Source: Bacillota bacterium
Lineage (GTDB): Bacteria > Bacillota > Sulfobacillia > RBS10-35 > JAJYVN01
Direction of reading: 5' to 3'
Assembly: GCA_021806565.1 (NCBI GenBank)
Contig: JAJZXK010000001.1
Location: forward strand, 32,314-96,313
Length of the DNA: 64,000 bases
Position numbers and translations under genes: made by a program. Shown here piece after piece: positions 15,813 through 64,000 of the stretch; position 1 is the stretch's first letter; every line of letters begins with the position of its first letter. Below the pieces are notes generated by a model. The model saw only the letters and a list, made by a program, of their open reading frames with translations. It ran no database searches and had not been told where the DNA came from.

Positions 15813-15845
15813 GGGGTATGCAACGGTCTGGCACCAGGTGGGTGA

Positions 15846-17684
<1,839 letters not shown>

Positions 17685-43974: not shown

Positions 43975-44104
43975 CCCGCCGATTGCCCGACGACTGCCGG
44001 ACGAAGATTGAGATGGGCGAGAAGGTCTGGTTTCCGTCCGGGTCGGTGCCGCCGCTCGTGGAAGCGCGTGCTGGCCGCCCCCCCGGCGTCTGGAGGCAGC
44101 AAGG

Positions 44105-45037: not shown

Positions 45038-45055
45038 GGGGAGACCGCGACGTAC

Positions 45056-45883
45056 TTGCACCTCGACCCATATCTGTTGCGGCTGGGACCGCTGGGCATC
45101 CGCTGGTACGGGGTGTTCATGGCGATCTCCATGGCCATCGGCATCCGCTACTTCGTCCGCCGCGGCAGGCAGGCCGGTGTGGATGAGGACACGCTGTATA
45201 ACATGGCGCTGTTGAGCATCCTCGCGGGCGTCGCCGGGGCGCGGCTAGTGTATGTGCTGACGAATTGGCACTACTTCCAACTGCATCCGGCGCAGATCCT
45301 CCAGATCGAACAGGGCGGGCTGGCGATTCACGGGGCCATTGTCGGCGGGGTGGCCATCGGCATGTGGTATGCCTGGATCCGGCGCCTTCCCTTCTGGGCC
45401 CTGGTGGACGGGATGGTCCCCGGGATCTGTGTGGGTGTGTTCCTGGTGCGCATCGGCAACATTTTCAACGGTGAGATTCTCGGTCACGCGGCGGTGCTGC
45501 TCGGGGGGCACCGCCAGCCGGCCCAGGTGTATGAGATGGTGTTTGCCCTCATCCTCTGGGCCGTCTACTGGCGGCAGTTGCGCAGGGATCCCGCGGACGG
45601 CGTACCGTTTTGGACGTTCATGCTCGGTTACAGTATTCTGCGCTTCATGAGTGAGGCCTTTCGCGACAATCCGCAATACGGGATGCACTATACCAACCAC
45701 TACCTGGGTATCGGCTTCGCGACGCTGGAGCAATGGTTCACGCCGCTCATCCTGGCGTTGACCCTCTGGGCCCTGGCTTGGCGGCGCGGCGTCGACCGGC
45801 ATACATTCACCGAAGGCCCTCGCTGGTCGCCTGGACCGGCGGGCATGGCCGCGGTACCCCAGGGAAGCGGCGAGGGGGCGTAG
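45056..45883 (+). CDS. lgt: prolipoprotein diacylglyceryl transferase
   Basis: RIGNIFNGEILG Lgt signature and multiple TM segments. Confidence 0.9.
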   Translation: MHLDPYLLRLGPLGIRWYGVFMAISMAIGIRYFVRRGRQAGVDEDTLYNMALLSILAGVAGARLVYVLTNWHYFQLHPAQILQIEQGGLAIHGAIVGGVAIGMWYAWIRRLPFWALVDGMVPGICVGVFLVRIGNIFNGEILGHAAVLLGGHRQPAQVYEMVFALILWAVYWRQLRRDPADGVPFWTFMLGYSILRFMSEAFRDNPQYGMHYTNHYLGIGFATLEQWFTPLILALTLWALAWRRGVDRHTFTEGPRWSPGPAGMAAVPQGSGEGA

Positions 45884-47308
45884 GTGATCGCGGGGCAGAA
45901 GGGCTCGGGGGACCGTCGTCGACGCCTGCCGCCCGTGCACGCGTTACTGGCGGACGCCCGGCTGGAGTCTTGGCAGGAGCGACTTGGCCGGGACGTCGTG
46001 CGCCGCGGGGTCGCCGCGGTGTTGGCCGTGGCGCGGACGCAGGCCGAGGCGGGGGATGTTCCGGACGCGGCCGCCATCCTGGACCGGGTAGAGCGGCGGC
46101 TGCGTGGAGAGTCGCGACCCCGCCTGCGGGCGGTGATCAACGCCACCGGCATCGTGCTGCATACCGGTCTGGGGCGCGCGCCCCTGGCAGCGGAGGCCGT
46201 GGAGGCGGTGGCGCGCGTCGCCGCTGGGTACAGCAACCTGGAGTTCGACCTCCAGGATGGCGAGCGCGGCGACCGCCACGCACTGGTGGCGTCCGCGCTG
46301 GGCGAACTCACGGGTGCGCCCGCGGCGATGGTCGTCAACAACAACGCCGCCGCGGTGCTGCTGCTTTTGGCCGCTCTGGCGGCGGGGCGCGAGGTGGTCG
46401 TCTCGCGCGGCGAACTGGTGGAAATCGGCGGCAGCTTCCGCATCCCAGAGGTGCTGGCGCAAAGCGGCGCGTCCCTGGTCGAAGTCGGCACGACCAACCG
46501 CACCTACGCCCGCGATTACACCGCGGCGACGAAGCGGCCCGGCGCAACGGTGGCCCTGCTGCTCAAGGTGCACCAGAGCAACTTCCGCCAGGTCGGCTTC
46601 ACGGCGGCACCGGGCATCGCCGAATTGGCGGCGGTCGCCCGCGGCGGCGGGATTCCGTTGGCCTATGACATGGGATCCGGCACGCTCTGGCCTGGACTCG
46701 GACCGCAGGGAGCGGTCGGGGAACCAACGGTGCGCGAGGCGCTGGCCGCTGGCGCCGACGTGGTGACCTGGAGCGGCGACAAGCTGTTGGGGGGGCCGCA
46801 GGCGGGCGTGCTGTGCGGGCGGGCCGACCTGATCCGGCACTGCGCCCGCCACCCACTTGCGCGGGCCGTGCGCGTCGACAAGTTGACGCTTGCGGCCCTG
46901 GAGGCGACCTTGGCCTTGTATCGGGAGGGACGGGCGGCGCAGGCGGTGCCGGCACTGCGCATGCTGCGCCGCCCGCCGGGCGAACTGGCGCGTGAGGCCG
47001 AGGCCCTGGCGGCAGCCTGCGGCCGCCGTCTGGGGCCCCGGGTCGAGGTGACCGTCGTGGCGGGGGCCTCGGCGGCGGGCGCCGGCGCCCTGGCCGCCGT
47101 GGAACTGCCCACCGCGCTGGTGCGACTGCGGGCCCGGGGGGCCGCGGTCTCCGAGTGGGCCGCTGCCCTGCGCACCGGCGAGGTGCCGTTGGTGGCCCGC
47201 GTCCAGGACGACGCACTCCTGTTGGATCCCCGGACCCTGCTGCCCGGTCAGTCCGAAGGGGTGCCCGACCTCCTGGCGGCCGCGCTGACGGCGCTTGCGG
47301 CTGGCTGA
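45884..47308 (+). CDS. selA: L-seryl-tRNA(Sec) selenium transferase (selenocysteine synthase) SelA
   Basis: VINATGIVLHTGLGRAPL, VVNNNAAAVLL, VSRGELVEIGGSFRIPEV, PLP-lysine motif WSGDKLLGGPQAG. Its start abuts the lgt stop. Confidence 0.9.
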   Translation: MIAGQKGSGDRRRRLPPVHALLADARLESWQERLGRDVVRRGVAAVLAVARTQAEAGDVPDAAAILDRVERRLRGESRPRLRAVINATGIVLHTGLGRAPLAAEAVEAVARVAAGYSNLEFDLQDGERGDRHALVASALGELTGAPAAMVVNNNAAAVLLLLAALAAGREVVVSRGELVEIGGSFRIPEVLAQSGASLVEVGTTNRTYARDYTAATKRPGATVALLLKVHQSNFRQVGFTAAPGIAELAAVARGGGIPLAYDMGSGTLWPGLGPQGAVGEPTVREALAAGADVVTWSGDKLLGGPQAGVLCGRADLIRHCARHPLARAVRVDKLTLAALEATLALYREGRAAQAVPALRMLRRPPGELAREAEALAAACGRRLGPRVEVTVVAGASAAGAGALAAVELPTALVRLRARGAAVSEWAAALRTGEVPLVARVQDDALLLDPRTLLPGQSEGVPDLLAAALTALAAG

Positions 47309-48224: not shown

Positions 48225-48742
48225 TTCGGTTCGGCCGCTGGGAGAAGGATGAGGCCGAACAGGACCTCGTCGCAGAAGGTGTCGCCGATGCGCAACTGGT
48301 CGCGTTGCACCCCTTCGACCGCATAGCCGGCCCGGTGGAAAAGCGCCAGCGCGGCCGCGTTGGACCGGGCGACCCCCGCGCCGATGCGGCGCAGTCCGGC
48401 CGCCATGGCCCAGGCGCGCACCCCCTGGAGCAGTAGCTGCCCGATGCCCCGTCGGCGCCATCGGGGGTCCACGGCGAGGGACGCCGTGGCCGTATGGACG
48501 GTGGTCGGTTCGAGCCCGCGCACCCCGACCGCGAAACCGACCACGCAGCTTTGGTGGACGGTCACCAGGGCGCAGGCATGCTCCAGTTCGAGGGCCGCGA
48601 GGCGTACCGCCTCCTCCTTTGGGTTCAGCGAGGCCGCGTCGATGCCGAGCATGCCCTCGGCCGCGACCGAGCGCAGGAGTGCCACGATGGCGTCGGCGTC
48701 GGCCTCGGTCGCGGCGCGCAGGCGGATCGCCGACTCAACCAC
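48221..48742 (-). CDS. GNAT family N-acetyltransferase within the flagellar filament locus
   Basis: VGFAVGVRGL...VDPRWRRRGIGQLLLQGVRAWA is a GNAT motif. Start set just after the fliD stop. Confidence 0.6.
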   Translation of the reverse strand: MVESAIRLRAATEADADAIVALLRSVAAEGMLGIDAASLNPKEEAVRLAALELEHACALVTVHQSCVVGFAVGVRGLEPTTVHTATASLAVDPRWRRRGIGQLLLQGVRAWAMAAGLRRIGAGVARSNAAALALFHRAGYAVEGVQRDQLRIGDTFCDEVLFGLILLPAAEPK

Positions 48743-50207
48743 CACTGCTGCTGCCCCCTGATCCACCCGATCCCTGGGCGGCATACTGCGCCTGCAGGAA
48801 GCCCGAAACCTGCTGGCTCTGGGCGTGGCTTGCCATCAAGCCCTGAATCATCTGCGAGAACTGCGACTGCATCTGTTGTTGCTGCTGCTGGATCATCTGG
48901 TTGATCGGGCTGTTTGGGTCGTTGATCTCCTGGCCCAGGCTCTGGGCCTGCTGCTGCAGGTCGCTGATCTGGGCGGGGATCGAGCCGTTGGGCCCCACAA
49001 AGAGGCTGAGTTGCTGTTGGAGTTGGGTGGCGATGCCGCCGCTGGCGCCGTTCATCAGCATGGCGACCGCGGCGGGATTGTCTGCCAGGGCCGTCTGCAA
49101 CGTGGTGGGGGAGACGCTGAGGGCGAGGTTGCTCGGGGAGCCGACCGGCGCGGAGAGCGTGACGCCGATCTGCGAAAGGGACTGGTACCCCGCCGGTTGA
49201 CCTGGCTGCACGGCGGTCAGGGCCTGAGTGATGCTGTTGGTCAGCGACAGCAGGGCGGCGTTGCCTTCGAGCGCCCCGTTTTTGCCCCCAAACTTCTGCA
49301 CGTCGCCCAGCAGGGTGTTGAAATCCTTGGCCAACTGCGAAAAAGCCCCGCTGATCGCGGACTGGTTTTGGGTGACGCTGATGGTGGCGGGGCTGCCGGA
49401 GGGCGTCGGCGCCAGCAGTTGCAGCGTGACGCCCGGGATGGTGGTGTTGTCGGTGTTGGTGAGGCCGGTCTCGGCCAAGCCGTTGACGGTGTATTGCGCG
49501 GCGTGGGCGGCCTGCAGTTGGTTGGCGGGCGTGGCGCTCGAGTTCAGGACGCCGAGCGACTTGAGGATGCCGCTCCCATCCGTCCACTGGATGGCCGTGC
49601 CCTGGGTGGACGCGATGTTGAGGGCGTAACCGCCGGTGGTCGGCATGACGGTCGCCGTGACGTTGTCGCTGGCGGCGTTGATCGAGTGGGAGATGGACTG
49701 GAGGCTGTCGGTGGACGCCACGCTGATCGTCTGACCGTTGATGGTGAAGCTGCCGCTTTGGTTGAGCGCGGCCGAAGAGCTCGTCTGGGTCGCTGAGTTG
49801 TCGATCTCCATCTGGGCCAGTTGGCTGACGGATACCTGGAAGGTGCCGGGCGAACCCGATGCGCTGGCGGACGTCGACACGTTCACCTGCGTGGGCGCGG
49901 AACTGGCCGCGCTCACCCCCTGATACAGGCCGGTGCCGGCCAGGCTCTGGGCGTCGGTCTGCAGGTTCGAGACATCCGTCTGCAACTGCTGCCAGGCCTG
50001 CTCCTGGGTGTTGACGGTGGAGAGTTGTTGAGAAAGCTGATTGAGGGGCAGGGCGTCGACGCCCAACTGGGCCTGCATGGCCTGATCCAGGGCGGAGATG
50101 TTGTAGCCGGGCAGGAGCGCCCCGAGGATCTGCGGATTGTTCCAGACGCTGGACGCACCCGAGGAAGATGATCCAAGAAGGCCCATGCCCCCGATGCTGC
50201 TGCTCAC
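48735..50207 (-). CDS. fliD: flagellar filament cap protein FliD
   Basis: Ser/Thr/Gln-rich 490 aa with N- and C-terminal FliD heptad regions. Confidence 0.8.
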   Translation of the reverse strand: MSSSIGGMGLLGSSSSGASSVWNNPQILGALLPGYNISALDQAMQAQLGVDALPLNQLSQQLSTVNTQEQAWQQLQTDVSNLQTDAQSLAGTGLYQGVSAASSAPTQVNVSTSASASGSPGTFQVSVSQLAQMEIDNSATQTSSSAALNQSGSFTINGQTISVASTDSLQSISHSINAASDNVTATVMPTTGGYALNIASTQGTAIQWTDGSGILKSLGVLNSSATPANQLQAAHAAQYTVNGLAETGLTNTDNTTIPGVTLQLLAPTPSGSPATISVTQNQSAISGAFSQLAKDFNTLLGDVQKFGGKNGALEGNAALLSLTNSITQALTAVQPGQPAGYQSLSQIGVTLSAPVGSPSNLALSVSPTTLQTALADNPAAVAMLMNGASGGIATQLQQQLSLFVGPNGSIPAQISDLQQQAQSLGQEINDPNSPINQMIQQQQQQMQSQFSQMIQGLMASHAQSQQVSGFLQAQYAAQGSGGSGGSSSGG

Positions 50208-50632
50208 CGCCGTACCCCCCCCGCCGCCGCGGCCGGTTGGCCGTGCAACTCAAGGTCGGCCGCCTGTTGCCAAGCCTCGCGCAACTCGGTGATCAATGGG
50301 ATCAGCGCGGCCAGCCGCTCGCGGCTCTTTTCGACGTTTGCTCGACCGAGTTCGGTGGACAGGTAGCCATATACAGCGTCCAGGTTCTTCGCCACGTCGC
50401 CGCCCACCTCGAGGTTGAGGCTGCCGCGCAGCAGCCCCAGGACCTGCTGGGCGTTGGTCAGTGCTTCGTGCGCCGCGGGGACGTCTTGGGCCGCGATGGC
50501 GCGGTCGGCCTGCCCGATGGCCATGAGCACGGCCGCCAGTGCCGTGGCGGGCACGCGTTGCGGCGGCAGCAGGGCTGCGGCGGCGCTGTGGTAGGCACAG
50601 ACGCGGGCGTGAAGGGTCGGGTCGGACACCAC
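50204..50632 (-). CDS. fliS: flagellin-specific chaperone FliS
   Basis: ALTNAQQVLGLLRGSLNLEVGGDVAKNLDAVYGYL matches the FliS core. ATGA overlap with fliD. Confidence 0.85.
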   Translation of the reverse strand: MVSDPTLHARVCAYHSAAAALLPPQRVPATALAAVLMAIGQADRAIAAQDVPAAHEALTNAQQVLGLLRGSLNLEVGGDVAKNLDAVYGYLSTELGRANVEKSRERLAALIPLITELREAWQQAADLELHGQPAAAAGGVRR

Positions 50633-50659
50633 AAGCCACCCCCGTTCGGGCTGGAAGCC

Positions 50660-50688
50660 GACAGGGGGCGGGCGTACCCGCCCCCCGC
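50660..50688 (-). terminator. GC-rich hairpin terminator downstream of flagellin
   Basis: The minus-strand RNA carries GGGGGCGGGUACGCCCGCCCCC (9-bp stem) followed by a U-containing tract, 25 nt after the flagellin stop. Confidence 0.5.
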
Positions 50689-50710
50689 GGTTGGCGTGGG
50701 ACCGTCGGGA

Positions 50711-52417
50711 CTAGGGCAGGAGCTTGAGCAGGGCCTGGGGCACCTGGTTTGCCTGGGCGAGCATCGCGACGCCCGACTGCTGTAGCACCTGGTCCTTGGA
50801 GAGCTTGACCATCGCCAGGGCCATGTCGGCGTTCATGATCCCGCCGCGGGCCGTGGTCAGGTTCTGCTGCGAGGTCTGCAGATCGTTGCTGGCCTGGGTC
50901 AGCCGGTTCATCAGCGATCCCACCTGGGCGCGCTCACCGGAGATCTGGGTCAGGGCCGCCTGGATAGCGGTCTGGGCCGTCGTCGCCTGGCTGTAGTTCA
51001 TGACCGAGAGGCCGCCGCCGACGCTGGCCTTCTGCTGCACCGTACCGCCGGAACCGGCCGCCGCCGTGTTGGTGGCGTAGGTGAGGGCGAAGTTGGACGC
51101 GGCGCCGGAGCCGAGGGTGCTGGTTGCGGCACCGTTGGTTCCGTAGGTGACACCGGACGAGGCTCCGAAGAGCGTCGACGCGGAGACGTTGACCGACACG
51201 GCCTGGCCGTCGTTGGCGTTGCCCACGGTCGCCGGGTTGGTGGTGGCCGCGTTGATGGTGGTGGCGCTGCCGATCGCCGTGCCGTTGGAGTCGACCAGCT
51301 GTACGGAGGCCGATTCGGGGGTCAGGGCGATGTTGTAGGTGTCGGTGCTCGTCGCCGTACCGGAGCCGGCGGCGGTGCCGGACTGGGTGGGTGCCGTGAT
51401 CTTGCTCAGATCGACGCTGGCTCCCGTCGTGCCGAGTTGTTGCGTGCCGGTGAGCGTGGACAGTCCGCTGGCGACGGTGGTGTAGGTGCTGCCGCCATCC
51501 GTGCTGTAGAGCACGTTGTAGGTGGTGGTGCCGGCGGTGCCGCTGGTGTACGGGGTGACCGCCTGGACCTGGACGGAGATGTTCTGGGACGTCGTGCCGG
51601 AATAGGTGAGCGCGTCGTACTTCATGGTGCCGGCGGTGCCGCTCAGACCGGTCAGCGTATTGCTTTCCGTAAAACCGTTGCTTCCCGCTGCGGTGGTGGT
51701 GCTGACTAGGGATGTCTGGCTGCCGCCGTTGATGGCGGCGGCCGATTGCTGGGCGGCGGTGATCTGCAGGCCGTAGTTGGTACCCGTCAGACCGTAGCTG
51801 CCATAGGGGTTGCTGGTGCTGGAGCCGCCATACAGCGCCAGAGCGGATAGGCCGTAGGTGGCCGCCGTGCTGGCGCTGCCGAAGGCGACGCTGTTCGGGT
51901 TCTGGCCTGAGACACCGAGGCTTTTGGCGTCCACCGCTCCCAACGAGAACTGCAGGGCCTGGTTGGGGTCGGCGCCGATGGCCAGGTTGACGTTGCCGAG
52001 CACACCGTCCAGCAGGTTCTTGTTGTTGAAGGCGGTCTGGTTGGTGATGCTGTTGATTTCCTTGGTGTACTGGTTCATCTGCGACTGGATCGAGCCGCGG
52101 TCGACACCCACGTTGGTGCCGTTGGCGGCCTGCGTGGCCAGGGAATACATCGACTGCAGGATGTTCTGAATCTGGCTGAGGGCGCCGTCGGCGGTCTGCA
52201 GGAAGCTGATGCCGGACTGGGCGTTCTGATTCGCCTGGTTCATGCCGTCGATCTGGGACTGCATCTGCTGGCTGATGGCCAGACCGGCCGGGTTGTCGGC
52301 GGCGGAGTTGATCTTGTACCCGGACGACAACTGCTGCAGCACGCCGTTCATGCTTGTCTGGGTGTTCTCGAGGTTGCGCCACGCATTCAGGGCCGCAACG
52401 TTGGTGTTCACAAACAT
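50711..52417 (-). CDS. hag: flagellin
   Basis: Conserved D0/D1 regions at both termini (NTNVAALNAWRNL...; ...LAQANQVPQALLKLL). 568 aa with a long variable middle. Confidence 0.95.
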   Translation of the reverse strand: MFVNTNVAALNAWRNLENTQTSMNGVLQQLSSGYKINSAADNPAGLAISQQMQSQIDGMNQANQNAQSGISFLQTADGALSQIQNILQSMYSLATQAANGTNVGVDRGSIQSQMNQYTKEINSITNQTAFNNKNLLDGVLGNVNLAIGADPNQALQFSLGAVDAKSLGVSGQNPNSVAFGSASTAATYGLSALALYGGSSTSNPYGSYGLTGTNYGLQITAAQQSAAAINGGSQTSLVSTTTAAGSNGFTESNTLTGLSGTAGTMKYDALTYSGTTSQNISVQVQAVTPYTSGTAGTTTYNVLYSTDGGSTYTTVASGLSTLTGTQQLGTTGASVDLSKITAPTQSGTAAGSGTATSTDTYNIALTPESASVQLVDSNGTAIGSATTINAATTNPATVGNANDGQAVSVNVSASTLFGASSGVTYGTNGAATSTLGSGAASNFALTYATNTAAAGSGGTVQQKASVGGGLSVMNYSQATTAQTAIQAALTQISGERAQVGSLMNRLTQASNDLQTSQQNLTTARGGIMNADMALAMVKLSKDQVLQQSGVAMLAQANQVPQALLKLLP

Positions 52418-52562
52418 GGTCTCTTGCCCGTCTTCCGCCCCGGCCGTGCGGGCTTCACTCCCTCGAATTTATGGATTGCGATCCTTCCGCCCCACGGGGG
52501 AGGTGCGACGGGGGACCGCCTCTTGGCCGGGCTCCGCTGGCCTTGTGCCAGCGTCACTTTCC

Positions 52563-55560: not shown

Positions 55561-55694
55561 CGTTCGTGAAAGTTGGGGGGAAGGCCCCCTTGCCGGAAGG
55601 TGGCGGCTGGTGACGTGTGGTACTAGCTCCGTCGACCCAGCACCACGGCGAGTGTACGCGAGGGCTCGGCAAAGGGGGTGCGCACCTGCGCAGG

Positions 55695-55850
55695 TGCTGA
55701 AGCTCGGGCATGCCCGGGCGCGGGGGAGTTTCCGGCACCGTGGGGTGAATCTCGCCGATACGGCGGGTAGGGCGGCCCGGCCGGCCCGAACCCGACAACT
55801 AACCCCGCAAGCACACGGTCGGGGAGGGTCGTCCTCCCCTCAGGTCTGGC
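55695..55850 (+). promoter_or_regulatory. c-di-AMP (ydaO/yuaA-type) riboswitch upstream of a LysM/M23 peptidase
   Basis: GGGGUGAAUC, GGGUAGGG and CCCGAACCCGACAACUAACCCCGCAAGC match the ydaO consensus. Followed by a GGGGAGGGUCGUCCUCCCC terminator-like hairpin and then the RBS/TTG of the peptidase. Confidence 0.7.
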
Positions 55851-55877: not shown

Positions 55878-57017
55878 TTGGCATCGCCTGAAGACAAACC
55901 GCGGCCTCGTTCGGCCTTTTCCGGCCGTCGGCGCCGCTTCCGTGCCGAAGTGTTTGCCCGTAACGTCTCCCGCCGGTTGCACGGGTGGTCCCAACATCCT
56001 CATGGACGTCACTTCTGGATCGCGGCGGCCGTCCCGATTGCCCTGGCCCTGGTTCCCTGGGAGGCCGCCGGCTTCGGAACCGCACAGGCGGCGTCGCCCG
56101 TGACCCCGCTGGCTATGGCGCCGGCCCATCCCGACGTGCTCCAGGTCACGGCATCCAGACAGCGTTCTCATCATTCGACCCAGGCGACGCAGACCCGCCA
56201 GCGGCTGTCCAGCATGGCGCGCCCGGCGGCGGCCGAGCGGCAGGGTCCGGTGATTTCCTCCTACGCCGTTCGGGCGGGTGACACCCTGAGCGGCATCGCG
56301 GCGCGTTTCGGCACCGACATGGCCAGCCTGGAGCGCATCAACCACCTGTCGGCCGACTCGATCCTGCAACCCGGCCAGAAACTGACCGTCTTGCATCAGA
56401 TCGGCTGGCTGTACACGGTGCGCTCCGGCGACACCCTGGATGGCATCGCGTCCGCGACGGGTGCGTCGCCCCGCGCCATTGCGCGAAGCAATGGCATGGG
56501 CGGAGGCGGCGCCATCCTGCACATCGGCCAGCGCTTGGTGATCCCCAAGAATCCGCCAGTGGCGATCGCGGCCGCGCGGCCCGCATCGGCTGCCGATCCC
56601 GCCCCGACGGCGCCGCCTCCGAGCCGCGGCGCGGCGTTGCAGTGGCCGGTCCAAGGCGTCATCACCAGCCCGTTTGGTTGGCGGCCCAATCCCTGGGGTG
56701 GTGCCGGGATGTTCTTCCACCACGGCATTGACATCGGGGTGCCGCAGGGTACGCTGGTGCACGCGGCCTGCAGCGGACGGGTGGTGCTGGCGCGATGGGA
56801 CGGCGGCTATGGCAACGCCGTCAAGGTTGCGTGCAACGACGGGTTGCTGACGCTGTACGCGCACAACTCCAGGTTTGCCGTGCACTACGGGCAACTGGTC
56901 GCCCAGGGTCAGGTGCTCGCCTATTCGGGTATGACCGGCAACGCCACCGGACCGCACGTGCACTTCGGCGTCATGCGCGGCGGCGTGTGGCAGAACCCGA
57001 TGAACTACCTGCCGTGA
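55878..57017 (+). CDS. LysM-domain M23 family metallopeptidase
   Basis: Two LysM repeats (YAVRAGDTLSGIA; YTVRSGDTLDGIA). M23 motifs HHGIDIGVPQGT and HVHFGV. Confidence 0.85.
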   Translation: MASPEDKPRPRSAFSGRRRRFRAEVFARNVSRRLHGWSQHPHGRHFWIAAAVPIALALVPWEAAGFGTAQAASPVTPLAMAPAHPDVLQVTASRQRSHHSTQATQTRQRLSSMARPAAAERQGPVISSYAVRAGDTLSGIAARFGTDMASLERINHLSADSILQPGQKLTVLHQIGWLYTVRSGDTLDGIASATGASPRAIARSNGMGGGGAILHIGQRLVIPKNPPVAIAAARPASAADPAPTAPPPSRGAALQWPVQGVITSPFGWRPNPWGGAGMFFHHGIDIGVPQGTLVHAACSGRVVLARWDGGYGNAVKVACNDGLLTLYAHNSRFAVHYGQLVAQGQVLAYSGMTGNATGPHVHFGVMRGGVWQNPMNYLP

Positions 57018-57209: not shown

Positions 57210-57485
57210 CTAGTAGCGGCGGGGGCCACCGGGACGCGGCTCACGCGGCCGGGCCTCGTTGACAGTGAGCAGACGACCGCCCATTTCCACGTTCTGCAAC
57301 GCGTCGATGGCGACCTGCGCCTGATCGTCTTCCACCTCGACGAAACCGAAACCCCTGGAACGTCCCGTCTCGCGATCCATCGCCACGCGCGCCGAAACGA
57401 CCTGCGCGTGCGGGGAAACCAACTGCGAAAGATCATCTTCGGTAGCGCTCCACGGCAGGTTCCCGATATACAGAGTCTTGGCCAA
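57210..57485 (-). CDS. RRM-type RNA-binding protein
   Basis: KTLYIGNLPW (RNP2) and SRGFGFVEV (RNP1). TTG start with GGAGAAGGGG RBS. Confidence 0.75.
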   Translation of the reverse strand: MAKTLYIGNLPWSATEDDLSQLVSPHAQVVSARVAMDRETGRSRGFGFVEVEDDQAQVAIDALQNVEMGGRLLTVNEARPREPRPGGPRRY

Positions 57486-57703
57486 GCTCTCGTACCCCTT
57501 CTCCTGGAACGGTCTGGGTGGGTCTCGGGGGGTTCCGGGAGACATGGCCCTCGGAGACCAGCCACAAGACACCGACCAGCGCCTGTAGCATACGTGCAAC
57601 CGGGTCAAGAGCGCAAGGGGCAGCGAAAAAAATTTGACAGTCCACCGCCGCGCACTTGACGGCGCTATGCTCGCCATGCTTTACTGCGGTAAAGCGATGA
57701 AGT

Positions 57704-58711
57704 TTGCCGCGAAGCATTCGGGCTCCTTGGGGGATTGGCGTGGCGAGGGCGTCGGGCGCGTTGGACGCGGTGCTCGCGACGGTCGCGCGCCGCCGCAGGC
57801 TGGCCGAGGCGCTACGGGTCGTCGTGGAGGCGCGCGGCTACGGCGAGGTGGCGGTGCCGCTCCTGCAGCCTGCGGAGGGCAGCGGCGACTGGGGCGGGGC
57901 CTACCGCGTGCTGGACCAGGATGGCTCGGTGCTGGCCTTGCGGCAGGATATCACCGGTCCGGTCGCACGGCTGTGCGCCAGCGGGGATGGCGGTGGACCT
58001 CGGCCGCGGCGGTTGCACTACCAGGCGACGATTGTGCGGCGCCTGCCGGGCGAGGGCGCCCGTGAGATCTTGCAGGCGGGCGTCGAGCGGATCGGCGCCG
58101 CGGCGCAGGAGCCGGCCGGTGAGGGCGATTTCGAGATGCTGGACCTGACCGCGTCCTGCCTGCAGGCCGCCGGGGCGCAGCGGTTCCTGCTGGCGGTGGG
58201 GAACGTCTCCTATGTGCGGGAGATGCTGGACGAGGGCGGTGTGCCGGCGGAGCCGGCGATGGCGGCGCTGCGGGCGCGCGACTATGTCGCGCTGAGCGCC
58301 CTGGTGCCGTCGCGCCTGCTGGCCGAACTGAGTTTCCGCGGCCCGCTGCCACAGGCGTTGGTGCGGTGCCGCCGCCGCCACGGTCCGGCGGCGCGCGCCT
58401 GGCGGGCCTTTCTCGAGCGTAGCGCCGACGCCGATTGGCAGCGGCATGTGCTCGTGGAACCCGGACTGGTCCTTTCGGCCGAGTACTACACCGGCCTGGT
58501 GTTCGAGGCGCTCTTGGCGGGGGTGCCATGGCCGGTCGGCGACGGCGGCAGATATGACCGCCTGCTCGGACATTGGGGTGTGGATGAACCGGCGGTAGGC
58601 TTTGCGCTGGACTGTGACCGCCTGCTGCGCGCCCTGGCCGGGTCTGCGGTCGCGGATGGCGATCGTCGCGTCTGGGCCCTGCTGCGCGATGCCGAAGGCG
58701 GGAGGCGATAG
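57704..58711 (+). CDS. hisZ: ATP phosphoribosyltransferase regulatory subunit HisZ
   Basis: Class-II aaRS-like fold, GFALDCDRL motif. TTG start. Confidence 0.8.
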   Translation: MPRSIRAPWGIGVARASGALDAVLATVARRRRLAEALRVVVEARGYGEVAVPLLQPAEGSGDWGGAYRVLDQDGSVLALRQDITGPVARLCASGDGGGPRPRRLHYQATIVRRLPGEGAREILQAGVERIGAAAQEPAGEGDFEMLDLTASCLQAAGAQRFLLAVGNVSYVREMLDEGGVPAEPAMAALRARDYVALSALVPSRLLAELSFRGPLPQALVRCRRRHGPAARAWRAFLERSADADWQRHVLVEPGLVLSAEYYTGLVFEALLAGVPWPVGDGGRYDRLLGHWGVDEPAVGFALDCDRLLRALAGSAVADGDRRVWALLRDAEGGRR

Positions 58712-58716: not shown

Positions 58717-59364
58717 ATGGAACGCGTTACGCTGGTGCTGCCGCGCGGGCGGCCGTGGGAGACCCTGGAGCCGATTCTGCGCCGCGCCGGCGTTCCGGGC
58801 GTCGCGGCGGCGGATCCGGACCGGCAATTGGTGGTGGAAGGCGAACGGGTGCGCCTGCTTTTCACACGGCCCGCGGATGTGGTGACTTACGTTCGAGAAG
58901 GCGTGGCGGATCTGGGGGTCACCGGCAAGGATGTCCTCCTGGAGGACGGCTCCGGGATCGTGGAGTTGCTGGAACTGCCGGTGGGACGCTGGCGCCTGTC
59001 GGTCGCCGTCCCGGAAGCGGGATCCCCGTGGCCGGAGTTGCTCGCCCAGCGGGGTGAGTCGCTGCGGGTGGCGACGAGCTATCCCAGGGCCGCCGCCTCC
59101 CACTTCGCGGCCCGCGGTCTGACGCCCCATGTCGTGCACCTGCGCGGCGCCGTCGAACTGGCGGCGGTCGTCGGCCTGGCCGACTGCGTGGTGGATGTGG
59201 TCGATACGGGGCGGACCCTGGCCGCCCACGGCCTGGTCGAGGTGGAGCGCATCGCGGAAGTGTCGCTGCGCCTTGTGGCCAACACGGTCAGCCACCGCCT
59301 GCGACACGCGGAGTTGGACGCACTGGCGCGTGGCCTGCGGCGGGCTCTGCGTACTTCCGCCTGA
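58717..59364 (+). CDS. hisG: ATP phosphoribosyltransferase (short form) HisG
   Basis: LPRGRPWETLEPIL...DLGVTGKDVLLE...DVVDTGRTLAAHGL. Confidence 0.9.
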   Translation: MERVTLVLPRGRPWETLEPILRRAGVPGVAAADPDRQLVVEGERVRLLFTRPADVVTYVREGVADLGVTGKDVLLEDGSGIVELLELPVGRWRLSVAVPEAGSPWPELLAQRGESLRVATSYPRAAASHFAARGLTPHVVHLRGAVELAAVVGLADCVVDVVDTGRTLAAHGLVEVERIAEVSLRLVANTVSHRLRHAELDALARGLRRALRTSA

Positions 59365-59466
59365 TCCATGCGGAGCCGGTAGAATCGGCCCGGAGGTCGG
59401 GTTCGTCCGCTACGCGCGGTTGGTCTATCCGCGCTCAGGTGGGGGGACGGGAGGAGGGGGAAGCGG

Positions 59467-61896
59467 GTGATGATGACGATGGATTCGTTCTGGCGGCCCT
59501 GCCCGCCGGAGCGGTGGCGGCGTCCCCCGGTCGACGGGGGCACGGGGGCGGTTGCGCAGAGGGTGGCCGAACTTCTTGCCGCGCTGCGTGCGGGTGGCGC
59601 GGCCGGCCTCGCCCGCATCGAGGCGGCGCTGCGCGCCGACCCCGCGGTCGCGGTGGACCGGGCGTTGCAAACGGACCCGCTGGATCCTTCCGTGATGGTA
59701 GAGGTCCCGGCCGCCGACGTGGCCGCCGCCTGGGATTCGGCGCCGGCGGCGTTGCGGGAGGCGCTGCGCACGACGCGGCGACGGCTGCGTGATGTCCTCG
59801 CCCCGGCGGTACCTCGGCCCCGCCGGCACCTGGACGCGGGTGGCAACCTGGCGCAACTGCGCCCGGTGCCGCTCGAGCGGGTCGGGGTATACGTCCCCGG
59901 CGGCCGCGCGGCGTATCCCTCCAGCGTGCTCATGTGTGTGGTGCCGGCGCGCCTGGCCGGTGTCGGCACGGTGGTGCTGTGTACTCCGGCTGGTGCGGAC
60001 GGACGCGCCGATCCGGCGGTCCTGGCCGCGGCCGCGGTGGCCGGGGTGGATCGGGTCTTCCGGCTGAATGCAGTTCCGGCGCTGGCCGCCATGGCCTGGG
60101 GACTTTCCCCGCTGCCGCCTTGCGACAAGGTGGTGGGACCCGGGAATCCGTACGTGGTGGAGGCCAAGCGGCAGTTGTATGGTGCGGTCGGCCTGGACGG
60201 CCTGCCCGGGCCTTCGGAGATCGTGGTGTTGGCATCCACGGGTGCGGATCCGCAGTGGGTGGCGGCCGACCTCTTGGCCCAAGCCGAGCACGGGCCCGAC
60301 AGCCTCTGCCTGTTGGTGACCGACGACGCTGATCTCGCCGCGGCCGTCGGAGCCGCTCTGGCGGCGCGGCTCGACGCCCTGCCGGCACAGCGGGCCCGGG
60401 ACGCGGCCGCTTCGTTGCGCGCCAGCGGCGGCCCCGTGCTGGTGGCGGCGCCGGCTGCCGGGTTGGCGTTCGCGGAGCACGTCGCCCCGGAGCACCTCTC
60501 GCTTCAGGGAAGTGCCGCGGAGTCCCTGGCGCCCCGGGTGCGCCGCGCGGGGGCGCTCTTTGTGGGGCCCTGGTCTCCGGTGGCCGGGGGCGATTACGCC
60601 GCCGGCACAGACCACGTGCTGCCGACGGCTGGCGCGGCGCGGTACGCCTCGGCCCTGGGGCCGTCGGACTTCGTGCGCACCATGCAAGTCTTTCATGGCA
60701 GTGCGGCCGGCTGTCGGCTCTGGGCCCCGGCCGCGGCGACGCTGGCCCGGGCGGAAGGTTTCGCCGCCCACGCCGCATCCATCGAGGAGCGGTTGGCGGT
60801 GGCACCCGCCGGAGAACTCGCGGCGGCACCGCCGGCGCCGTATGTGCCGGCGGTGCCGCCGGGAGCGGTGCGCATGGACCTCAACGAAAACCCCTTCGCC
60901 TGGTCGGAGCCGCTTTGGCAAGACGTGTTGGCGCGTCTACGCACCGCCGAGCCGACCCGATACCCGCGCGACACGCAGCGGTTGGAGGCGGCGCTGGCGG
61001 AGTATGCCGGGGTCGCGCCCTCCCAGTGTCTGGCGGCCAACGGTTCCGACGAACTGCTGCTGGCGGCCGTCGCCGCCTGGGGCCACCGGGTGCGGCGCGT
61101 CCTGTTTCCGGCGCCGACCTTCGGTATGTATCGTCGCTTGGCCGAGGCGGCCGGGCTGGAGGCGGTCGCGCTCCCTGTCGGTCCCGCGCCCGGCTTCGCG
61201 CTGCCGGTGGATGACCTGCTGGCCGAGGTGGCCAAGGGTGGGGAGACGCTGCTGTTTTTGTGCCGGCCGAACAACCCGACGGGCAGCCTCTGGCCGCGGG
61301 ATGCGGTGGAGCGGCTGGTTGCGGCCGAAGGTGTCTGGGCGGTCCTCGACGAGGCATACCTGGAGTTTGCGGGTCCGGGGGCCGGACTCACCGAGTGGAT
61401 CGACCGCCACCCGCGACTGTGCCTGCTGCGCACGATGAGCAAGGCGTTCGGTCTGGCCGGTTTGCGTGTCGGTTACGCCCTGTGCGGCGCGCAGGGTCTG
61501 GAGCCGCTGCGGGCGGCCGTGCAGCCCTGGGCGGTCAGCAGCTTCTCGTGCGTCGCCGCCCTGGCAGCCCTGGGCCGGCGGGACGAGATGTCGCGGACGG
61601 TTGCGCTGTTGGTCGCCGAGCGGGACCGCCTGACCTCCGGCCTGGCGCGCCTTCGCGGGGTGACCCCGTATCCCAGTTCCGCGAACTACATTCTGTTTCA
61701 AGTGGACGCGCAGCGCAGTGGTTGGCGGGCCCCGGAATTGTTTGAGGCCCTCTACCGGGAGGGCTCGGTGCTGCGCCGGTTCGCCAGCGAGCCCGCTCTG
61801 GCGGACTGTCTGCGTGTGAGTGTTGGCCAACCGCACGAAAACGACCGGTTGTTGGCGCTGCTCGAGGCGGCGTTGGGGGCGCGGGCGGGCGCCTGA
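59467..61896 (+). CDS. hisD: apparent fusion of histidinol dehydrogenase (HisD) and histidinol-phosphate aminotransferase (HisC) in one 809-aa frame
   Basis: N-terminal about 440 aa carry HisD motifs (GPGNPYVVEAKRQLYG, AEHGPDS). A Pro/Ala linker follows. The C-terminal about 345 aa carry HisC motifs (MDLNENPF, TMSKAFGLAGLRVGY). No stop codon lies between them. Confidence 0.8.
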   Translation: MMMTMDSFWRPCPPERWRRPPVDGGTGAVAQRVAELLAALRAGGAAGLARIEAALRADPAVAVDRALQTDPLDPSVMVEVPAADVAAAWDSAPAALREALRTTRRRLRDVLAPAVPRPRRHLDAGGNLAQLRPVPLERVGVYVPGGRAAYPSSVLMCVVPARLAGVGTVVLCTPAGADGRADPAVLAAAAVAGVDRVFRLNAVPALAAMAWGLSPLPPCDKVVGPGNPYVVEAKRQLYGAVGLDGLPGPSEIVVLASTGADPQWVAADLLAQAEHGPDSLCLLVTDDADLAAAVGAALAARLDALPAQRARDAAASLRASGGPVLVAAPAAGLAFAEHVAPEHLSLQGSAAESLAPRVRRAGALFVGPWSPVAGGDYAAGTDHVLPTAGAARYASALGPSDFVRTMQVFHGSAAGCRLWAPAAATLARAEGFAAHAASIEERLAVAPAGELAAAPPAPYVPAVPPGAVRMDLNENPFAWSEPLWQDVLARLRTAEPTRYPRDTQRLEAALAEYAGVAPSQCLAANGSDELLLAAVAAWGHRVRRVLFPAPTFGMYRRLAEAAGLEAVALPVGPAPGFALPVDDLLAEVAKGGETLLFLCRPNNPTGSLWPRDAVERLVAAEGVWAVLDEAYLEFAGPGAGLTEWIDRHPRLCLLRTMSKAFGLAGLRVGYALCGAQGLEPLRAAVQPWAVSSFSCVAALAALGRRDEMSRTVALLVAERDRLTSGLARLRGVTPYPSSANYILFQVDAQRSGWRAPELFEALYREGSVLRRFASEPALADCLRVSVGQPHENDRLLALLEAALGARAGA

Positions 61897-61914: not shown

Positions 61915-62515
61915 GTTGGCAGAGGTGGGGCGCCGGGCCGAGGTGCGCCGGCAGACCAAGGAGACAGACATCCGCCTGCGTCTGGATGTGGACGGCACGG
62001 GAACCTGCGGCAGTGCGACCGGGGTGGGATTCCTCGATCACATGTTGTCGGCGTTCTGCCGCACCGCGTTGTGCGACCTGGAGGTGCAGTGCCGCGGCGA
62101 CCTTGTCGTGGAACCGCACCACAGCGTCGAGGATGTCGGGTTGTGCCTCGGACAGGCCCTGCGCCAGGCGCTGGGGGACCGTGCCGGGGTGCGGCGCTAC
62201 GGTGCGGCCCTGGTACCCATGGACGATGCCCTCGCCCAGGTGGCGCTGGACCTGTCGGGCCGTCCCTATCTCGCATGGGGGCCGCAACTGCCCCTGCAGA
62301 CCCTCGGGACCTTCCAGACCGACCTGGCCGAGGAGTTCTGGCGGGCCGTGACGGCGCAGGCGGCGTGGACCCTGCACGTGGACCTGCTGCGCTGGCGCAA
62401 TGCCCACCACGCCCTGGAGGCAATCTGGAAGGCCGCCGGCCTGGCGCTGCGATCGGCGGCCGCGCGGGATGCGCGCATCGTCGGCACGCTCTCGACCAAG
62501 GGCGTGCTGGCATGA
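61915..62515 (+). CDS. hisB: imidazoleglycerol-phosphate dehydratase HisB
   Basis: VRRQTKETDIRLRLDVDG...GFLDHML...HHSVEDVGL. TTG/GTG start just after the hisDC stop. Confidence 0.85.
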
Positions 62516-63153
62516 GTTCGGCGCCTTCACCGCCGATCGCGATTGTGGACTACGGCGCCGGCAACCTGCACAGCGTTGCCAAGGCGGCGGCGGCGGCCGG
62601 GCTGTGTGCGGTGGTGACCGGAGATCCGGGTAGGGTGGCGGCGGCGCAGGCGATCATCCTGCCGGGGGTCGGCGCCTTCGCGCAGTGCATGGCCGAACTG
62701 GCTGCGCGCGGGCTGACCGAACCCCTGCGGGCGCATCTGGCGGCGGGCCGGCCCCTGTTGGGGATCTGCCTCGGCCTCCAGGTGCTGTTTGAGCGCGGCG
62801 AGGAGGGGGCCGGAGCGGCCGGGTTCGGCCACCTGCCGGGTACGGTCTGTCGTCTTTCGGCCCCGGGGCTGAAGGTGCCCCACATGGGATGGAACGCGGT
62901 GCGGCCGCTGCGGTCTTCACCGCTTTTCGACGGTATCCCGTCCGGCGCCTATTTCTACTTTGTGCACAGCTACCAGGCTATGGCTCAGGATCGACACGAT
63001 GTCCTGGCGGTGGCCGACTATGGCGGCCCGGTGACCGCAGCCGTGCAGCGCGGTCAAGTCTTCGCAGTACAGTTCCACCCGGAGAAGTCCAGTGTGGTCG
63101 GGCTGCGGCTGTTGCGGAACTTCGCGGCGCTCGCCGCAGGTGGTGCCGCGTGA
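62512..63153 (+). CDS. hisH: imidazole glycerol phosphate synthase, glutamine amidotransferase subunit HisH
   Basis: IAIVDYGAGNLHSV...GICLGLQVLF...VQFHPEKS. ATGA overlap with hisB. Confidence 0.9.
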   Translation: MSSAPSPPIAIVDYGAGNLHSVAKAAAAAGLCAVVTGDPGRVAAAQAIILPGVGAFAQCMAELAARGLTEPLRAHLAAGRPLLGICLGLQVLFERGEEGAGAAGFGHLPGTVCRLSAPGLKVPHMGWNAVRPLRSSPLFDGIPSGAYFYFVHSYQAMAQDRHDVLAVADYGGPVTAAVQRGQVFAVQFHPEKSSVVGLRLLRNFAALAAGGAA

Positions 63154-63890
63154 CGAGGTTCACCGTGTGGCCCGCCATCGATCTGCGCGGGCGGCAGTGT
63201 GTGCGCTTGGTGCAGGGGGACCCCGACCAGGCGGAGGTGTTCGCCCGCGATCCGGTTGCGGTCGCCTGCCGCTTCGCGGCGGAGGGCGCGACCGCCCTAC
63301 ATGTGGTGGACCTGGACGGCGCCTTCGCCGGCCGGCCGCGCCAATTGGATCTGGTGGCCGATATCGTCCGGGCGGCCGCCGTGCCGGTGCAATTCGGCGG
63401 GGGGCTGCGCAGTGAGCGTGACGTGGAGGCCGCGTTTGAAGCGGGCGTGGCGCGGGTGGTCCTGGGCACGCGGGCGCTGGACCCTTCCTTTCTAGAAGGC
63501 ATGCTGCAGCGGTGGGGCCCCGACCGCTTGCTCGCCGGCCTGGATGCGCGTGGCGAGGAGTTGGCGGTTGCGGGCTGGCAGGAGCGCACGGGGCTGGACG
63601 CGGCGGCCGCGGCGGCCCGTTTGCGGGCGGCCGGGGTGGAGAGCGCCGTCTACACGCAGGTGCAGCGCGACGGGATGTTGGCCGGCCCGGACCTGGAGGG
63701 GATCCGCCGCATCGCCGCCAGCGGGCTGCAGGTGATCGCCTCCGGTGGGGTGACGACGGCAGAGGACATCCGAACCCTGTCGGCGATGCGGTCGCAGGGG
63801 GTGTGCGGCGCCATCCTCGGCCGGGCGCTGTATGCGGGGCGCGTGACGCTTGCCGAGGCGTTGGCTGCGGCGGCCTTCGCCGCCGGGTAG
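63150..63890 (+). CDS. hisA: ProFAR isomerase HisA
   Basis: [19 protein letters not shown]...VQFGGGLRS...[15 protein letters not shown] overlap with hisH. Confidence 0.9.
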
Positions 63891-63918: not shown

Positions 63919-64000
63919 GTGCTGGCGCGGCGCATCATTCCTTGCCTGGACATCGATGAGGGGCGCGTCGTCAAGGGCGTGCGTTTCGAGAATACGAGGG
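63919..64000 (+). CDS. hisF: imidazole glycerol phosphate synthase cyclase subunit HisF (5' partial, runs off the window)
   Basis: [27 protein letters not shown] matches the HisF N-terminus. Confidence 0.7.

What the first reader, a model, noticed from the sequence alone, without database searches (positions are those of the whole stretch)
60700..60900. HisD and HisC encoded as a single 809-aa ORF (bifunctional fusion or lost stop codon)
Histidinol dehydrogenase motifs occupy the first ~440 residues and histidinol-phosphate aminotransferase motifs the last ~345. They are joined by a Pro/Ala-rich linker (AVAPAGELAAAPPAPYVPAVPPGA) with no stop or frameshift. HisD (last two steps) fused to HisC (step 7) is not the common HisIE/HisB-type fusion and would couple non-consecutive steps. 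It could also be an assembly or indel artefact that removed a stop.
Basis: seen in the sequence. Interest (0 to 1): 0.55.

Follow-up and report, generated by a model that had tools for sequence, protein, structure and literature searches.

The report
Natural HisD–HisC fusion enzyme gene
Two neighbouring histidine-biosynthesis genes (histidinol dehydrogenase and histidinol-phosphate aminotransferase) really are joined into one conserved gene here; it is not a sequencing error, the same fusion occurs in many bacterial lineages, and it mirrors the first laboratory-made gene fusion (1970), so it is solid but only moderately novel.

Summary
The 809-aa ORF (59467..61896, +) is real. It has a complete HisD domain (res 71-443), a 14-aa Ala/Pro linker (444-457) and a HisC domain (458-803).

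It is not an artefact. The identical protein is called in an NCBI MAG and in separate assemblies of two sequencing runs. At least 25 relatives at 46-84% identity keep one ORF with a 13-17-aa linker. The isolate Thermaerobacter marianensis also has a fused gene.

All residues aligning to the E. coli active-site positions of both enzymes are invariant. Both halves evolve under equal purifying selection (dN/dS ~0.13), while the linker drifts but stays in frame.

The 120 best database hits are all two-domain fusions. They come from Bacillota, Chloroflexota, Actinomycetota, Gemmatimonadota, Myxococcota, Proteobacteria, Bacteroidota and Acidobacteriota. A rough tree needs at least 11 gains or losses.

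No third domain and no histidinol-phosphate phosphatase accompanies the fusion. It most likely fixes 1:1 co-production of two adjacent homodimeric enzymes rather than channelling.

Reviews of his-gene fusions omit this pair. The same fusion was made in Salmonella in 1970 (Yourno, Kohno, Roth). Verdict: real, conserved, modest novelty.

The parts
57740..58711 (+). hisZ (regulatory subunit of ATP phosphoribosyltransferase), first gene of the operon
   Evidence: Pfam tRNA-synt_His, 160 bits. Gene call of 323 aa on the identical NCBI contig, mapped to the window with offset 56469.
58717..59364 (+). hisG (short-form ATP phosphoribosyltransferase, 215 aa)
   Evidence: Pfam HisG, 155 bits; ORF.
59449..59460 (+). 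Shine-Dalgarno-like GGGAGGAGGGGG, 6 nt upstream of the GTG/ATG start cluster of the fused gene
   Evidence: Read directly from the sequence.
59467..61896 (+). Fused hisD::hisC ORF, 809 aa. The gene callers of public assemblies start at ATG 59470, giving 808 aa.
59677..60795 (+). HisD (histidinol dehydrogenase) domain, residues 71-443. Residues aligning to E. coli Zn-ligand and catalytic positions: Q272, H275, E342, H343, D376, H383, E430, H435.
   Evidence: PF00815 389.7 bits; TIGR00069 383.5 bits against a cutoff of 243.8. Residue mapping to E. coli 1K75. Residues invariant in A1.
60796..60837 (+). True inter-domain linker, residues 444-457 (AVAPAGELAAAPPA). Its sequence is variable and its length is conserved (13-17 aa) in the clade.
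   Evidence: dN/dS 0.44-0.63 against about 0.13 in the domains, and a 1-codon indel against the closest relatives. Predicted coil with a pLDDT dip to 62.
60838..60867 (+). HisC N-terminal arm motif PYVPAVPPGA (residues 458-467).
   Evidence: P458, Y459, V460, P461, P464 and G466 are invariant or at least 90% conserved. Homologous PY/GY motif in stand-alone HisC N-termini. PDB HisC alignments start here.
60838..61875 (+). HisC (histidinol-phosphate aminotransferase) domain, residues 458-803. Residue aligning to the E. coli PLP-lysine K214: K659 (61441-61443). Other conserved residues: N603, D628, Y631, S658, R667, R770, R783.
   Evidence: TIGR01141 265 bits; PF00155 174 bits. Mapping to E. coli 1FG3. 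Invariance. Foldseek TM 0.82-0.85 to solved HisC structures.
60861..60876 (+). In-frame GGGAG + 8 nt + ATG (Met470). This is a chance internal start look-alike, not a conserved feature.
   Evidence: Met470 occurs only in the window, P0002 and P0003, and is Leu elsewhere. GGGAG is GGGCG in L084 and L085. A start here would remove the conserved PY arm.
61925..62515 (+). hisB (IGP dehydratase only, 196 aa, no phosphatase domain), starting 28 nt after the fused gene
   Evidence: Pfam IGPD; gene call; sequence.
62512..63153 (+). hisH (glutamine amidotransferase subunit)
   Evidence: Pfam GATase; gene call.
63165..63890 (+). hisA
   Evidence: Pfam His_biosynth; gene call.
63919..64000 (+). Start of hisF, which runs off the window. 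On the full contig hisF and hisIE follow.
   Evidence: Gene calls on L081 and L084.

Best explanation
This is a genuine, evolutionarily fixed fusion of the adjacent operon genes hisD and hisC. It encodes one polypeptide of about 85 kDa with two independent, intact active sites. The N-terminal site is an NAD/Zn-dependent histidinol dehydrogenase (last two steps of the pathway). The C-terminal site is a PLP-dependent histidinol-phosphate aminotransferase (step 7).

The fusion arose by loss of the hisD stop together with the first ~17 codons of hisC. As a result HisD's last helix is tied by a 14-residue Ala/Pro spacer directly to HisC's N-terminal arm (inferred).

The step between the two activities (histidinol-phosphate phosphatase) is encoded elsewhere. 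The fusion therefore most likely does not channel a substrate. Instead it locks in 1:1 co-synthesis and co-assembly of two enzymes that are each homodimers, and it removes one translation-initiation event from a compact operon (inferred).

Shown here: the ORF, both domains, conservation of the residues aligning to the E. coli active-site positions, purifying selection on both halves, and persistence and recurrence of the fusion. Inferred: that a single polypeptide accumulates, that both activities are present, and the selective benefit.
For: ORF and domains.

Not an artefact:
- The identical 808-aa product lies on 7 contigs, including NCBI GCA_027418245.1 and Logan assemblies of SRR13222494 and SRR13222495.
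- Relatives at 84%, 82% and 56-68% identity, plus a 730-aa subgroup at 46-52%, all carry one ORF with a 13-17-aa linker.
- The finished genome of the isolate Thermaerobacter marianensis DSM 12885 carries a 935-aa fusion.

Functional integrity:
- The residues aligned with E. coli HisD Q259/H262/D360/H419 and E326/H327 are invariant across 27 fused proteins, as are those aligned with E. coli HisC N157/D184/Y187/S213/K214/R222/R322/R335.
- dN/dS is 0.13 for HisD and 0.12-0.15 for HisC. The linker gives 0.44-0.63, with an in-frame 1-codon indel.
- The AF2 model has pLDDT 84.9 with both domains folded and a coil at 446-467.
- The HisC half superposes on solved HisC structures at TM 0.82-0.85.

Context:
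- The operon is hisZ-G-[DC]-B-H-A-F-IE, with no other hisC or hisD in the window.

Ease of origin and recurrence:
- In 10 of 41 genomes with separate adjacent genes, only the hisD stop codon separates in-frame hisD and hisC.
- Fused forms occur in at least 8 phylum-level groups with linkers of 13-126 aa, and Fitch parsimony needs at least 11 changes on a HisD tree.

Precedent:
Against: - There is no protein-level or activity evidence for this or any natural HisD-HisC fusion.
- The HisC half scores 265.2 bits on TIGR01141, just under the curated cutoff of 276.55. The match starts at profile position 21, so the shortfall is probably due to the replaced N-terminus.
- The steps are non-consecutive and no phosphatase is fused or adjacent, so the adaptive value is unproven and the fusion could be nearly neutral.
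- Raw reads were not examined directly.
- The monomer model cannot show whether both dimer interfaces can form at once. The HisD half superposes poorly as a rigid body on domain-swapped crystal monomers (TM about 0.5).
Confidence: 0.88

Rival explanations
1. Assembly or sequencing artefact: a lost stop codon or an indel merged two separate genes in this assembly only.
For: The genome is a 71% GC metagenome-derived sequence. No stop occurs in any forward frame across 60700-60900, so a frameshift would not be flagged by stops alone.
Against: The identical product is found in an NCBI MAG and in separate assemblies of two runs. The fusion is present in every relative found, from 84% down to about 41% identity, including a finished isolate genome. 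Protein similarity to HisD and HisC is in the same frame on both sides of the junction. The linker differs from relatives by whole codons only.
Confidence: 0.02
2. The ORF is fused, but the cell makes separate enzymes. This could happen by internal translation initiation at ATG 60874 (preceded by GGGAG) or by proteolytic cleavage in the Ala/Pro linker.
For: GGGAG lies 8 nt upstream of an in-frame ATG (Met470). The linker is predicted to be coil with lower confidence.
Against: Met470 is Leu in all but the three closest sequences. The GGGAG is GGGCG in the 82-84% relatives. A product starting at Met470 would lack the nearly invariant PY arm. The conserved linker length of 13-17 aa argues for constraint on a tethered protein.
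Confidence: 0.05
3. The C-terminal aminotransferase is not HisC. It would instead be a related subfamily enzyme (CobD-like threonine-phosphate decarboxylase, or an aromatic or other aminotransferase) fused to HisD for another purpose.
For: TIGR01141 scores slightly below its cutoff. CobD (TIGR01140) also matches at 197.7 bits. A CobD structure (1lkc) appears among the fold matches.
Against: hisC is the best-scoring model by 65 bits or more. The residues aligning to E. coli HisC R322/R335 and the arm residue Tyr459 are conserved (their phosphate-binding role is recalled). The gene sits exactly where hisC sits in hisGDCB operons, and the operon has no other hisC. The best sequence matches in PDB are HisC enzymes.
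Confidence: 0.04

Closest known systems
Laboratory hisD-hisC fusion of Salmonella typhimurium (Yourno, Kohno and Roth, Nature 1970, 228:820; pmid 4920435)
   Same: The same two genes, in the same order (D then C), adjacent in the operon and joined into one reading frame. It is described as a bifunctional histidinol dehydrogenase/aminotransferase and as the first artificial fusion enzyme.
   Different: That fusion was selected in the laboratory. From my recollection it arose by paired frameshift mutations reading through the hisD stop; I did not check this. The fusion here is natural, fixed, under purifying selection and widespread. Its junction replaces the first ~17 residues of HisC with a 14-aa spacer. 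The 1970 paper itself could not be read here.
Database-only natural PF00815+PF00155 proteins, e.g. Thermaerobacter marianensis DSM 12885 'histidinol dehydrogenase' (935 aa, P0034)
   Same: The same two-domain architecture in the same order and the same conserved active-site-aligned residues. It groups with the window's clade in the HisD tree.
   Different: Only about 41% identity. The linker is about 67 aa and lacks the PYVP motif, and there are extra low-complexity insertions and a tail. It is annotated only as histidinol dehydrogenase and is uncharacterised.
HisNB (bifunctional HisB of gamma-proteobacteria)
   Same: A fusion of his enzymes catalysing non-consecutive steps (6 and 8), arising within the operon.
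   Different: Different domains (HAD phosphatase plus IGP dehydratase). Here hisB is monofunctional, 196 aa, IGPD only.
Fungal HIS4 (HisI-HisE-HisD)
   Same: HisD is fused to enzymes of distant steps in the same pathway.
   Different: HIS4 is eukaryotic. HisD is the C-terminal module and its partners are HisIE, not HisC. No prokaryotic HIS4-like protein was found by Fani et al. 2007.

Membership tests
Histidinol dehydrogenase HisD (EC 1.1.1.23; PF00815, TIGR00069) | Full-length match to the family profile above the curated cutoff | tested here: met
   TIGR00069 383.5 bits against a cutoff of 243.8, residues 77-442. PF00815 389.7 bits, reaching profile end 411/411.
Histidinol dehydrogenase HisD (EC 1.1.1.23; PF00815, TIGR00069) | Zn ligands (E. 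coli Q259, H262, D360, H419) and catalytic E326/H327. The roles are recalled from the E. coli structure literature. | tested here: met
   These align to Q272, H275, D376, H435 and E342/H343. All are invariant in 27 fused homologues.
Histidinol dehydrogenase HisD (EC 1.1.1.23; PF00815, TIGR00069) | NAD-dependent oxidation of histidinol to histidine | not testable with these tools
   Requires an enzyme assay or complementation.
Histidinol-phosphate aminotransferase HisC (EC 2.6.1.9; TIGR01141, PF00155) | Match to the HisC equivalog profile above the curated cutoff | tested here: inconclusive
   TIGR01141 is the best aminotransferase model at 265.2 bits, against a cutoff of 276.55. The match starts at profile position 21 because the N-terminus is replaced by the linker. 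PF00155 scores 174 bits against a cutoff of 19.7.
Histidinol-phosphate aminotransferase HisC (EC 2.6.1.9; TIGR01141, PF00155) | PLP-binding lysine and cofactor residues (E. coli K214, S213, D184, Y187, N157, R222) | tested here: met
   These align to K659, S658, D628, Y631, N603 and R667. All are invariant.
Histidinol-phosphate aminotransferase HisC (EC 2.6.1.9; TIGR01141, PF00155) | Substrate-phosphate binding arginines (E. coli R322, R335) and the N-terminal arm Tyr (Y20). The roles are recalled. | tested here: met
   R770 and R783 are aligned and invariant. Y459 lies in the PY arm motif shared with stand-alone HisC.
Histidinol-phosphate aminotransferase HisC (EC 2.6.1.9; TIGR01141, PF00155) | HisC fold | tested here: met
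   The model superposes on HisC structures 8bj1, 1fg3, 4r8d, 3cq5 and 2f8j with TM 0.82-0.85 and rmsd 2.5-4.7 A.
Histidinol-phosphate aminotransferase HisC (EC 2.6.1.9; TIGR01141, PF00155) | Located in a his operon as the only hisC candidate | tested here: met
   The operon is hisZ-G-[DC]-B-H-A-F-IE. No second homologue is present in the 64-kb window. The rest of the genome was not searched.
Natural HisD-HisC fusion proteins (PF00815 followed by PF00155 in one chain) | Both domains in one uninterrupted ORF, in the order D then C | tested here: met
Natural HisD-HisC fusion proteins (PF00815 followed by PF00155 in one chain) | Fusion conserved in independent relatives (not a singleton) | tested here: met
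   The 120 best hits are all two-domain proteins. Genomic loci L001, L002, L084 and L085 confirm single ORFs.
Natural HisD-HisC fusion proteins (PF00815 followed by PF00155 in one chain) | A single bifunctional polypeptide accumulates in the cell | not testable with these tools
   Needs proteomics or expression.

The most novel reading that the evidence does not exclude
The fusion may be more than a co-expression device. It tethers two different two-fold-symmetric dimers through a short 14-residue spacer attached to HisC's substrate-contacting arm. This could build a higher-order assembly (a ring or filament, or a closed D2-like particle). Such an assembly might recruit the unlinked histidinol-phosphate phosphatase into a three-enzyme metabolon carrying imidazole-acetol phosphate through to histidine. 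That would explain why the same non-consecutive pair has been fused independently in many phyla.
Probability: 0.12. Interest if true: 0.55.

Novelty: new member of a known kind. Interest (0 to 1): 0.3.

Why it matters
1. Annotation. These proteins are named only 'histidinol dehydrogenase' or only 'histidinol-phosphate aminotransferase' in public records. Pathway reconstructions can therefore score hisC (or hisD) as missing and wrongly predict histidine auxotrophy in Bacillota, Chloroflexota, Gemmatimonadota and other MAG-dominated lineages.

2. Evolution. hisD-hisC is a recurrent natural fusion that the standard catalogue of his-gene fusions does not list. It adds a further case of non-consecutive steps being fused. 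That argues that operon adjacency and ease of stop-codon loss drive many fusions, rather than substrate channelling.

3. History. It is the natural counterpart of the first gene fusion ever made in the laboratory (1970). The evolutionary route that experiment proposed has in fact been taken repeatedly in nature.

Tried and rejected
- Artefact hypothesis: rejected.
- Conserved internal start for a separate HisC: rejected. Met470 and its GGGAG are not conserved.
- Third domain (such as a phosphatase) hidden in the longer fusions of other phyla (up to 1160-aa stop-to-stop ORFs; 919-935-aa Thermaerobacter-clade proteins P0030 and P0034): none found, only PF00815 and PF00155.
- Histidinol-phosphate phosphatase near the fusion: none in the operon, and no PHP, HAD or IMPase domain among 30 window ORFs scanned. 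About 15 ORFs between 0 and 27 kb were not scanned.
- Regulatory leader (T-box or other Rfam family) upstream of hisZ: none, even at E <= 1.
- Second hisD or hisC copy in the window: none.
- A solved structure spanning both domains: none by sequence or by fold (TMq <= 0.40).
- Literature on a natural hisD-hisC fusion: four searches found none. The library holds only open-access papers and bioRxiv, so this is not proof of absence.
- Organism name: the exact-match clusters carry no names. The closest named genomes are 'Bacillota bacterium' MAGs.
Full report
**Observation**

The window contains one ORF at 59467..61896 (+), with a GTG start, 809 aa and a TGA stop. The reported junction region (60700-60900) has no stop in that frame. 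Pfam finds a complete Histidinol_dh domain at residues 71-443, ending at profile position 411/411, and an Aminotran_1_2 domain at 503-797. NCBIfam gives hisD (TIGR00069, 383.5 bits, cutoff 243.8) at 77-442. It gives hisC (TIGR01141, 265.2 bits, cutoff 276.55) at 466-800, and hisC is the best of all aminotransferase models. GC at the three codon positions keeps the same coding signature through the junction (GC3 0.78-0.90).

**Surroundings**

The ORF lies in a his operon: hisZ (57740-58711), hisG (58717-59364), the fused gene, hisB (61925-62515; 196 aa, dehydratase only), hisH (62512-63153), hisA (63165-63890) and the start of hisF. On the longer public contigs hisF and hisIE follow.

- A strong Shine-Dalgarno-like GGGAGGAGGGGG precedes the start.
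- No second hisD or hisC homologue is in the window.
- No Rfam family, T-box or otherwise, lies upstream of hisZ.
- The window also encodes Spo0A, flagellar genes and SelA, and is 71% GC. This fits a high-GC endospore-lineage member of the Bacillota.

**Artefact or real**

The exact 808-aa product is encoded on 7 contigs. These include the NCBI assembly GCA_027418245.1 and separate Logan assemblies of runs SRR13222494 and SRR13222495.

A protein search returned 1331 hits at E <= 1e-30, and the best 120 are all two-domain proteins (PF00815 + PF00155) of 576-935 aa (the shortest, P0023, is truncated). They include relatives at 84%, 82% and 56-68% identity, plus a 730-aa subgroup at 46-52%. The finished genome of Thermaerobacter marianensis DSM 12885 carries a 935-aa version.

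I fetched the DNA of the 84% and 82% relatives (L084, L085) and of a 64% relative (L001). All have a single ORF in the same operon context. At the junction they differ from the window by substitutions and one whole-codon indel.

**Anatomy of the junction**

In an alignment of 27 fused proteins (A1) the HisD domain ends at ...AHAASIEERL443. Residues 444-457 (AVAPAGELAAAPPA) vary in sequence but hardly in length: 13-17 aa across the clade. From P458 the sequence is conserved again: P458, Y459, V460, P461, P464 and G466 are invariant or at least 90% conserved.

Stand-alone HisC proteins from unfused genomes carry the same motif (L.PY.SAR, or GYHSPQ in Actinomycetota). It sits 16-20 residues after their start codon and 13-17 residues before LNxNE. 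The fusion has replaced roughly the first 17 residues of HisC with a 14-residue spacer attached to HisD's last helix. In the AlphaFold model that helix is H433-445 and the coil runs 446-467 (pLDDT 84.9, pTM 0.60).

The in-frame GGGAG + ATG at 60861-60876 looks like a relic start but is not conserved. Met470 is Leu in all but three sequences, and the GGGAG is GGGCG in L084 and L085.

**Are both halves functional?**

The alignment to E. coli HisD (1K75) puts E. coli Q259, H262, D360, H419, E326, H327, H367 and E414 opposite window Q272, H275, D376, H435, E342, H343, H383 and E430. The alignment to E. coli HisC (1FG3) puts N157, D184, Y187, S213, K214, R222, R322 and R335 opposite N603, D628, Y631, S658, K659, R667, R770 and R783. 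All of these are invariant in the 27 fused proteins. The catalytic roles of these E. coli residues are recalled from the structural literature and were not tested here.

Nei-Gojobori dN/dS against L084 and L085 is 0.13 for the HisD part and 0.12-0.15 for the HisC part. The 14 linker codons give 0.44-0.63. The HisC half of the model superposes on solved HisC structures at TM 0.82-0.85. The HisD half matches HisD structures significantly but with a poor rigid-body fit (TM about 0.5). This is plausibly because HisD crystal structures are domain-swapped dimers (title of 1K75) while the model is a monomer. No PDB chain covers both halves.

**Distribution and origin**

In 80 loci from species-representative genomes I classified the architecture by ORF.

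- Single fused ORFs occur in the Bacillota relatives (L001, L002).
- They occur in nine Chloroflexota/Limnocylindria genomes (L008, L009, L014-L016, L018, L023, L027, L029).
- They occur in a Thermoanaerobaculia genome (L005), a Hymenobacteraceae genome (L012) and two Proteobacteria MAGs (L025, L047).

Named protein hits add Actinomycetota, Gemmatimonadota/Longimicrobiales and Kofleriaceae. Pfam scans of ten of the longest or most distant fusions show only the two domains. Linker lengths are 13-17 aa in the window's clade and 19-126 aa elsewhere.

A neighbour-joining tree of 196 HisD domains places the window's clade and the Thermaerobacter clade together as an all-fused group. Other fused groups are interspersed with unfused ones, and Fitch parsimony needs at least 11 state changes. 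This is a rough estimate on a sample enriched for fusions.

The route to fusion is short. In 10 of 41 genomes with separate adjacent genes, hisD and hisC are in the same frame with only the hisD stop codon between them.

**Mechanism**

By established pathway knowledge, HisC makes histidinol phosphate (step 7), a phosphatase makes histidinol (step 8), and HisD oxidises it twice to histidine (steps 9-10). The fused activities therefore bracket a step that is not in the protein. That step is not in the operon (hisB is dehydratase-only), and no candidate phosphatase domain was found among 30 scanned ORFs of the window.

Direct channelling is therefore unlikely. The best-supported reading is a bifunctional enzyme whose two sites work independently. 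The fusion would fix equimolar synthesis and co-assembly of two homodimeric enzymes and remove one initiation site. This is an inference. A near-neutral ratchet (easy to fuse, hard to split) is compatible with the repeated origins. The conserved linker length and the retained PY arm show that the junction is under constraint.

**Comparison with what is known**

The catalogue of his-gene fusions lists hisIE, hisNB, hisHF/HIS7 and HIS4. It never mentions hisC (Fani et al. 2007, PMC1963479: 0 occurrences; the same list appears in PMC8305728). Four full-text searches found no description of a natural hisD-hisC fusion.

The same pair was fused in the laboratory in Salmonella. [quoted passage not shown] The window's gene is thus the natural counterpart of a classic experiment, and a member of a large but uncharacterised and under-annotated database family.

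**Verdict**

Novelty is modest: a natural, recurrent, uncharacterised fusion of a known kind. Interest is 0.3.

Noticed in passing
window 55685-55828 (+): A c-di-AMP riboswitch (RF00379, 65.6 bits) lies directly upstream of a LysM + Peptidase_M23 gene (55878-57017). This is a typical ydaO-class leader on a cell-wall hydrolase.
   Followed up: partly
window 15710-15820 (+): A TPP riboswitch (RF00059, 58.8 bits) lies upstream of a 613-aa ORF (15846-17684). I did not annotate that ORF.
   Followed up: no
window 57486-57739: The 254-nt region between the divergent RRM_1 gene (57210-57485, -) and hisZ has no Rfam match even at E <= 1. The his operon has no recognisable T-box or attenuator, so its regulation is unknown.
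   Followed up: partly
window 43010-45244 (-) and 38404-39468 (-): A 744-aa ORF and a 354-aa ORF have a good coding signature (GC3 well above GC2) but no Pfam hit at E <= 1e-5.
   Followed up: no
window 36366-37439 (+), 45884-47308 (+), 48735-52468 (-): Spo0A, SelA (selenocysteine synthesis) and a fliD-fliS-fliC flagellar cluster are present. With 71% GC this indicates a motile, endospore-lineage, selenoprotein-using member of the Bacillota.
   Followed up: partly
L004, L006, L007, L010, L011, L013, L019, L022, L024, L026 (hisD/hisC boundary): In these Bacteroidota, Calditrichota, Legionella, Competibacteraceae and Micrarchaeota genomes, hisD and hisC are in the same frame and separated only by the hisD stop codon. 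They are one substitution away from a fusion.
   Followed up: partly
A1 alignment: P0017 (columns ~738-795), P0034 (columns ~804-842), P0024-P0026 (columns ~332-356): Fused homologues tolerate large low-complexity insertions inside the HisC domain: about 55 aa of Gly/Ala-rich sequence after 'EFAG' in P0017, and about 39 aa in T. marianensis (P0034). The 730-aa subgroup lacks about 25 residues of the HisD domain.
   Followed up: no
window 59467-59680 (residues 1-71 of the fused protein): The HisD N-terminus of this clade is divergent. The Pfam match starts at profile position 45, against positions 3-13 in fusions from other phyla. The domain scores 390 bits against 426-542 bits elsewhere. The segment around residues 55-75 looks like a clade-specific insertion.
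   Followed up: no
model m97b34a76fdad versus PDB HisD chains: The HisD half of the monomer model aligns to HisD crystal structures with rmsd of 19-24 A despite 35-40% identity. I attribute this to the domain-swapped dimer in the crystals. The tethered HisC may therefore sit next to the partner subunit.
   Followed up: no
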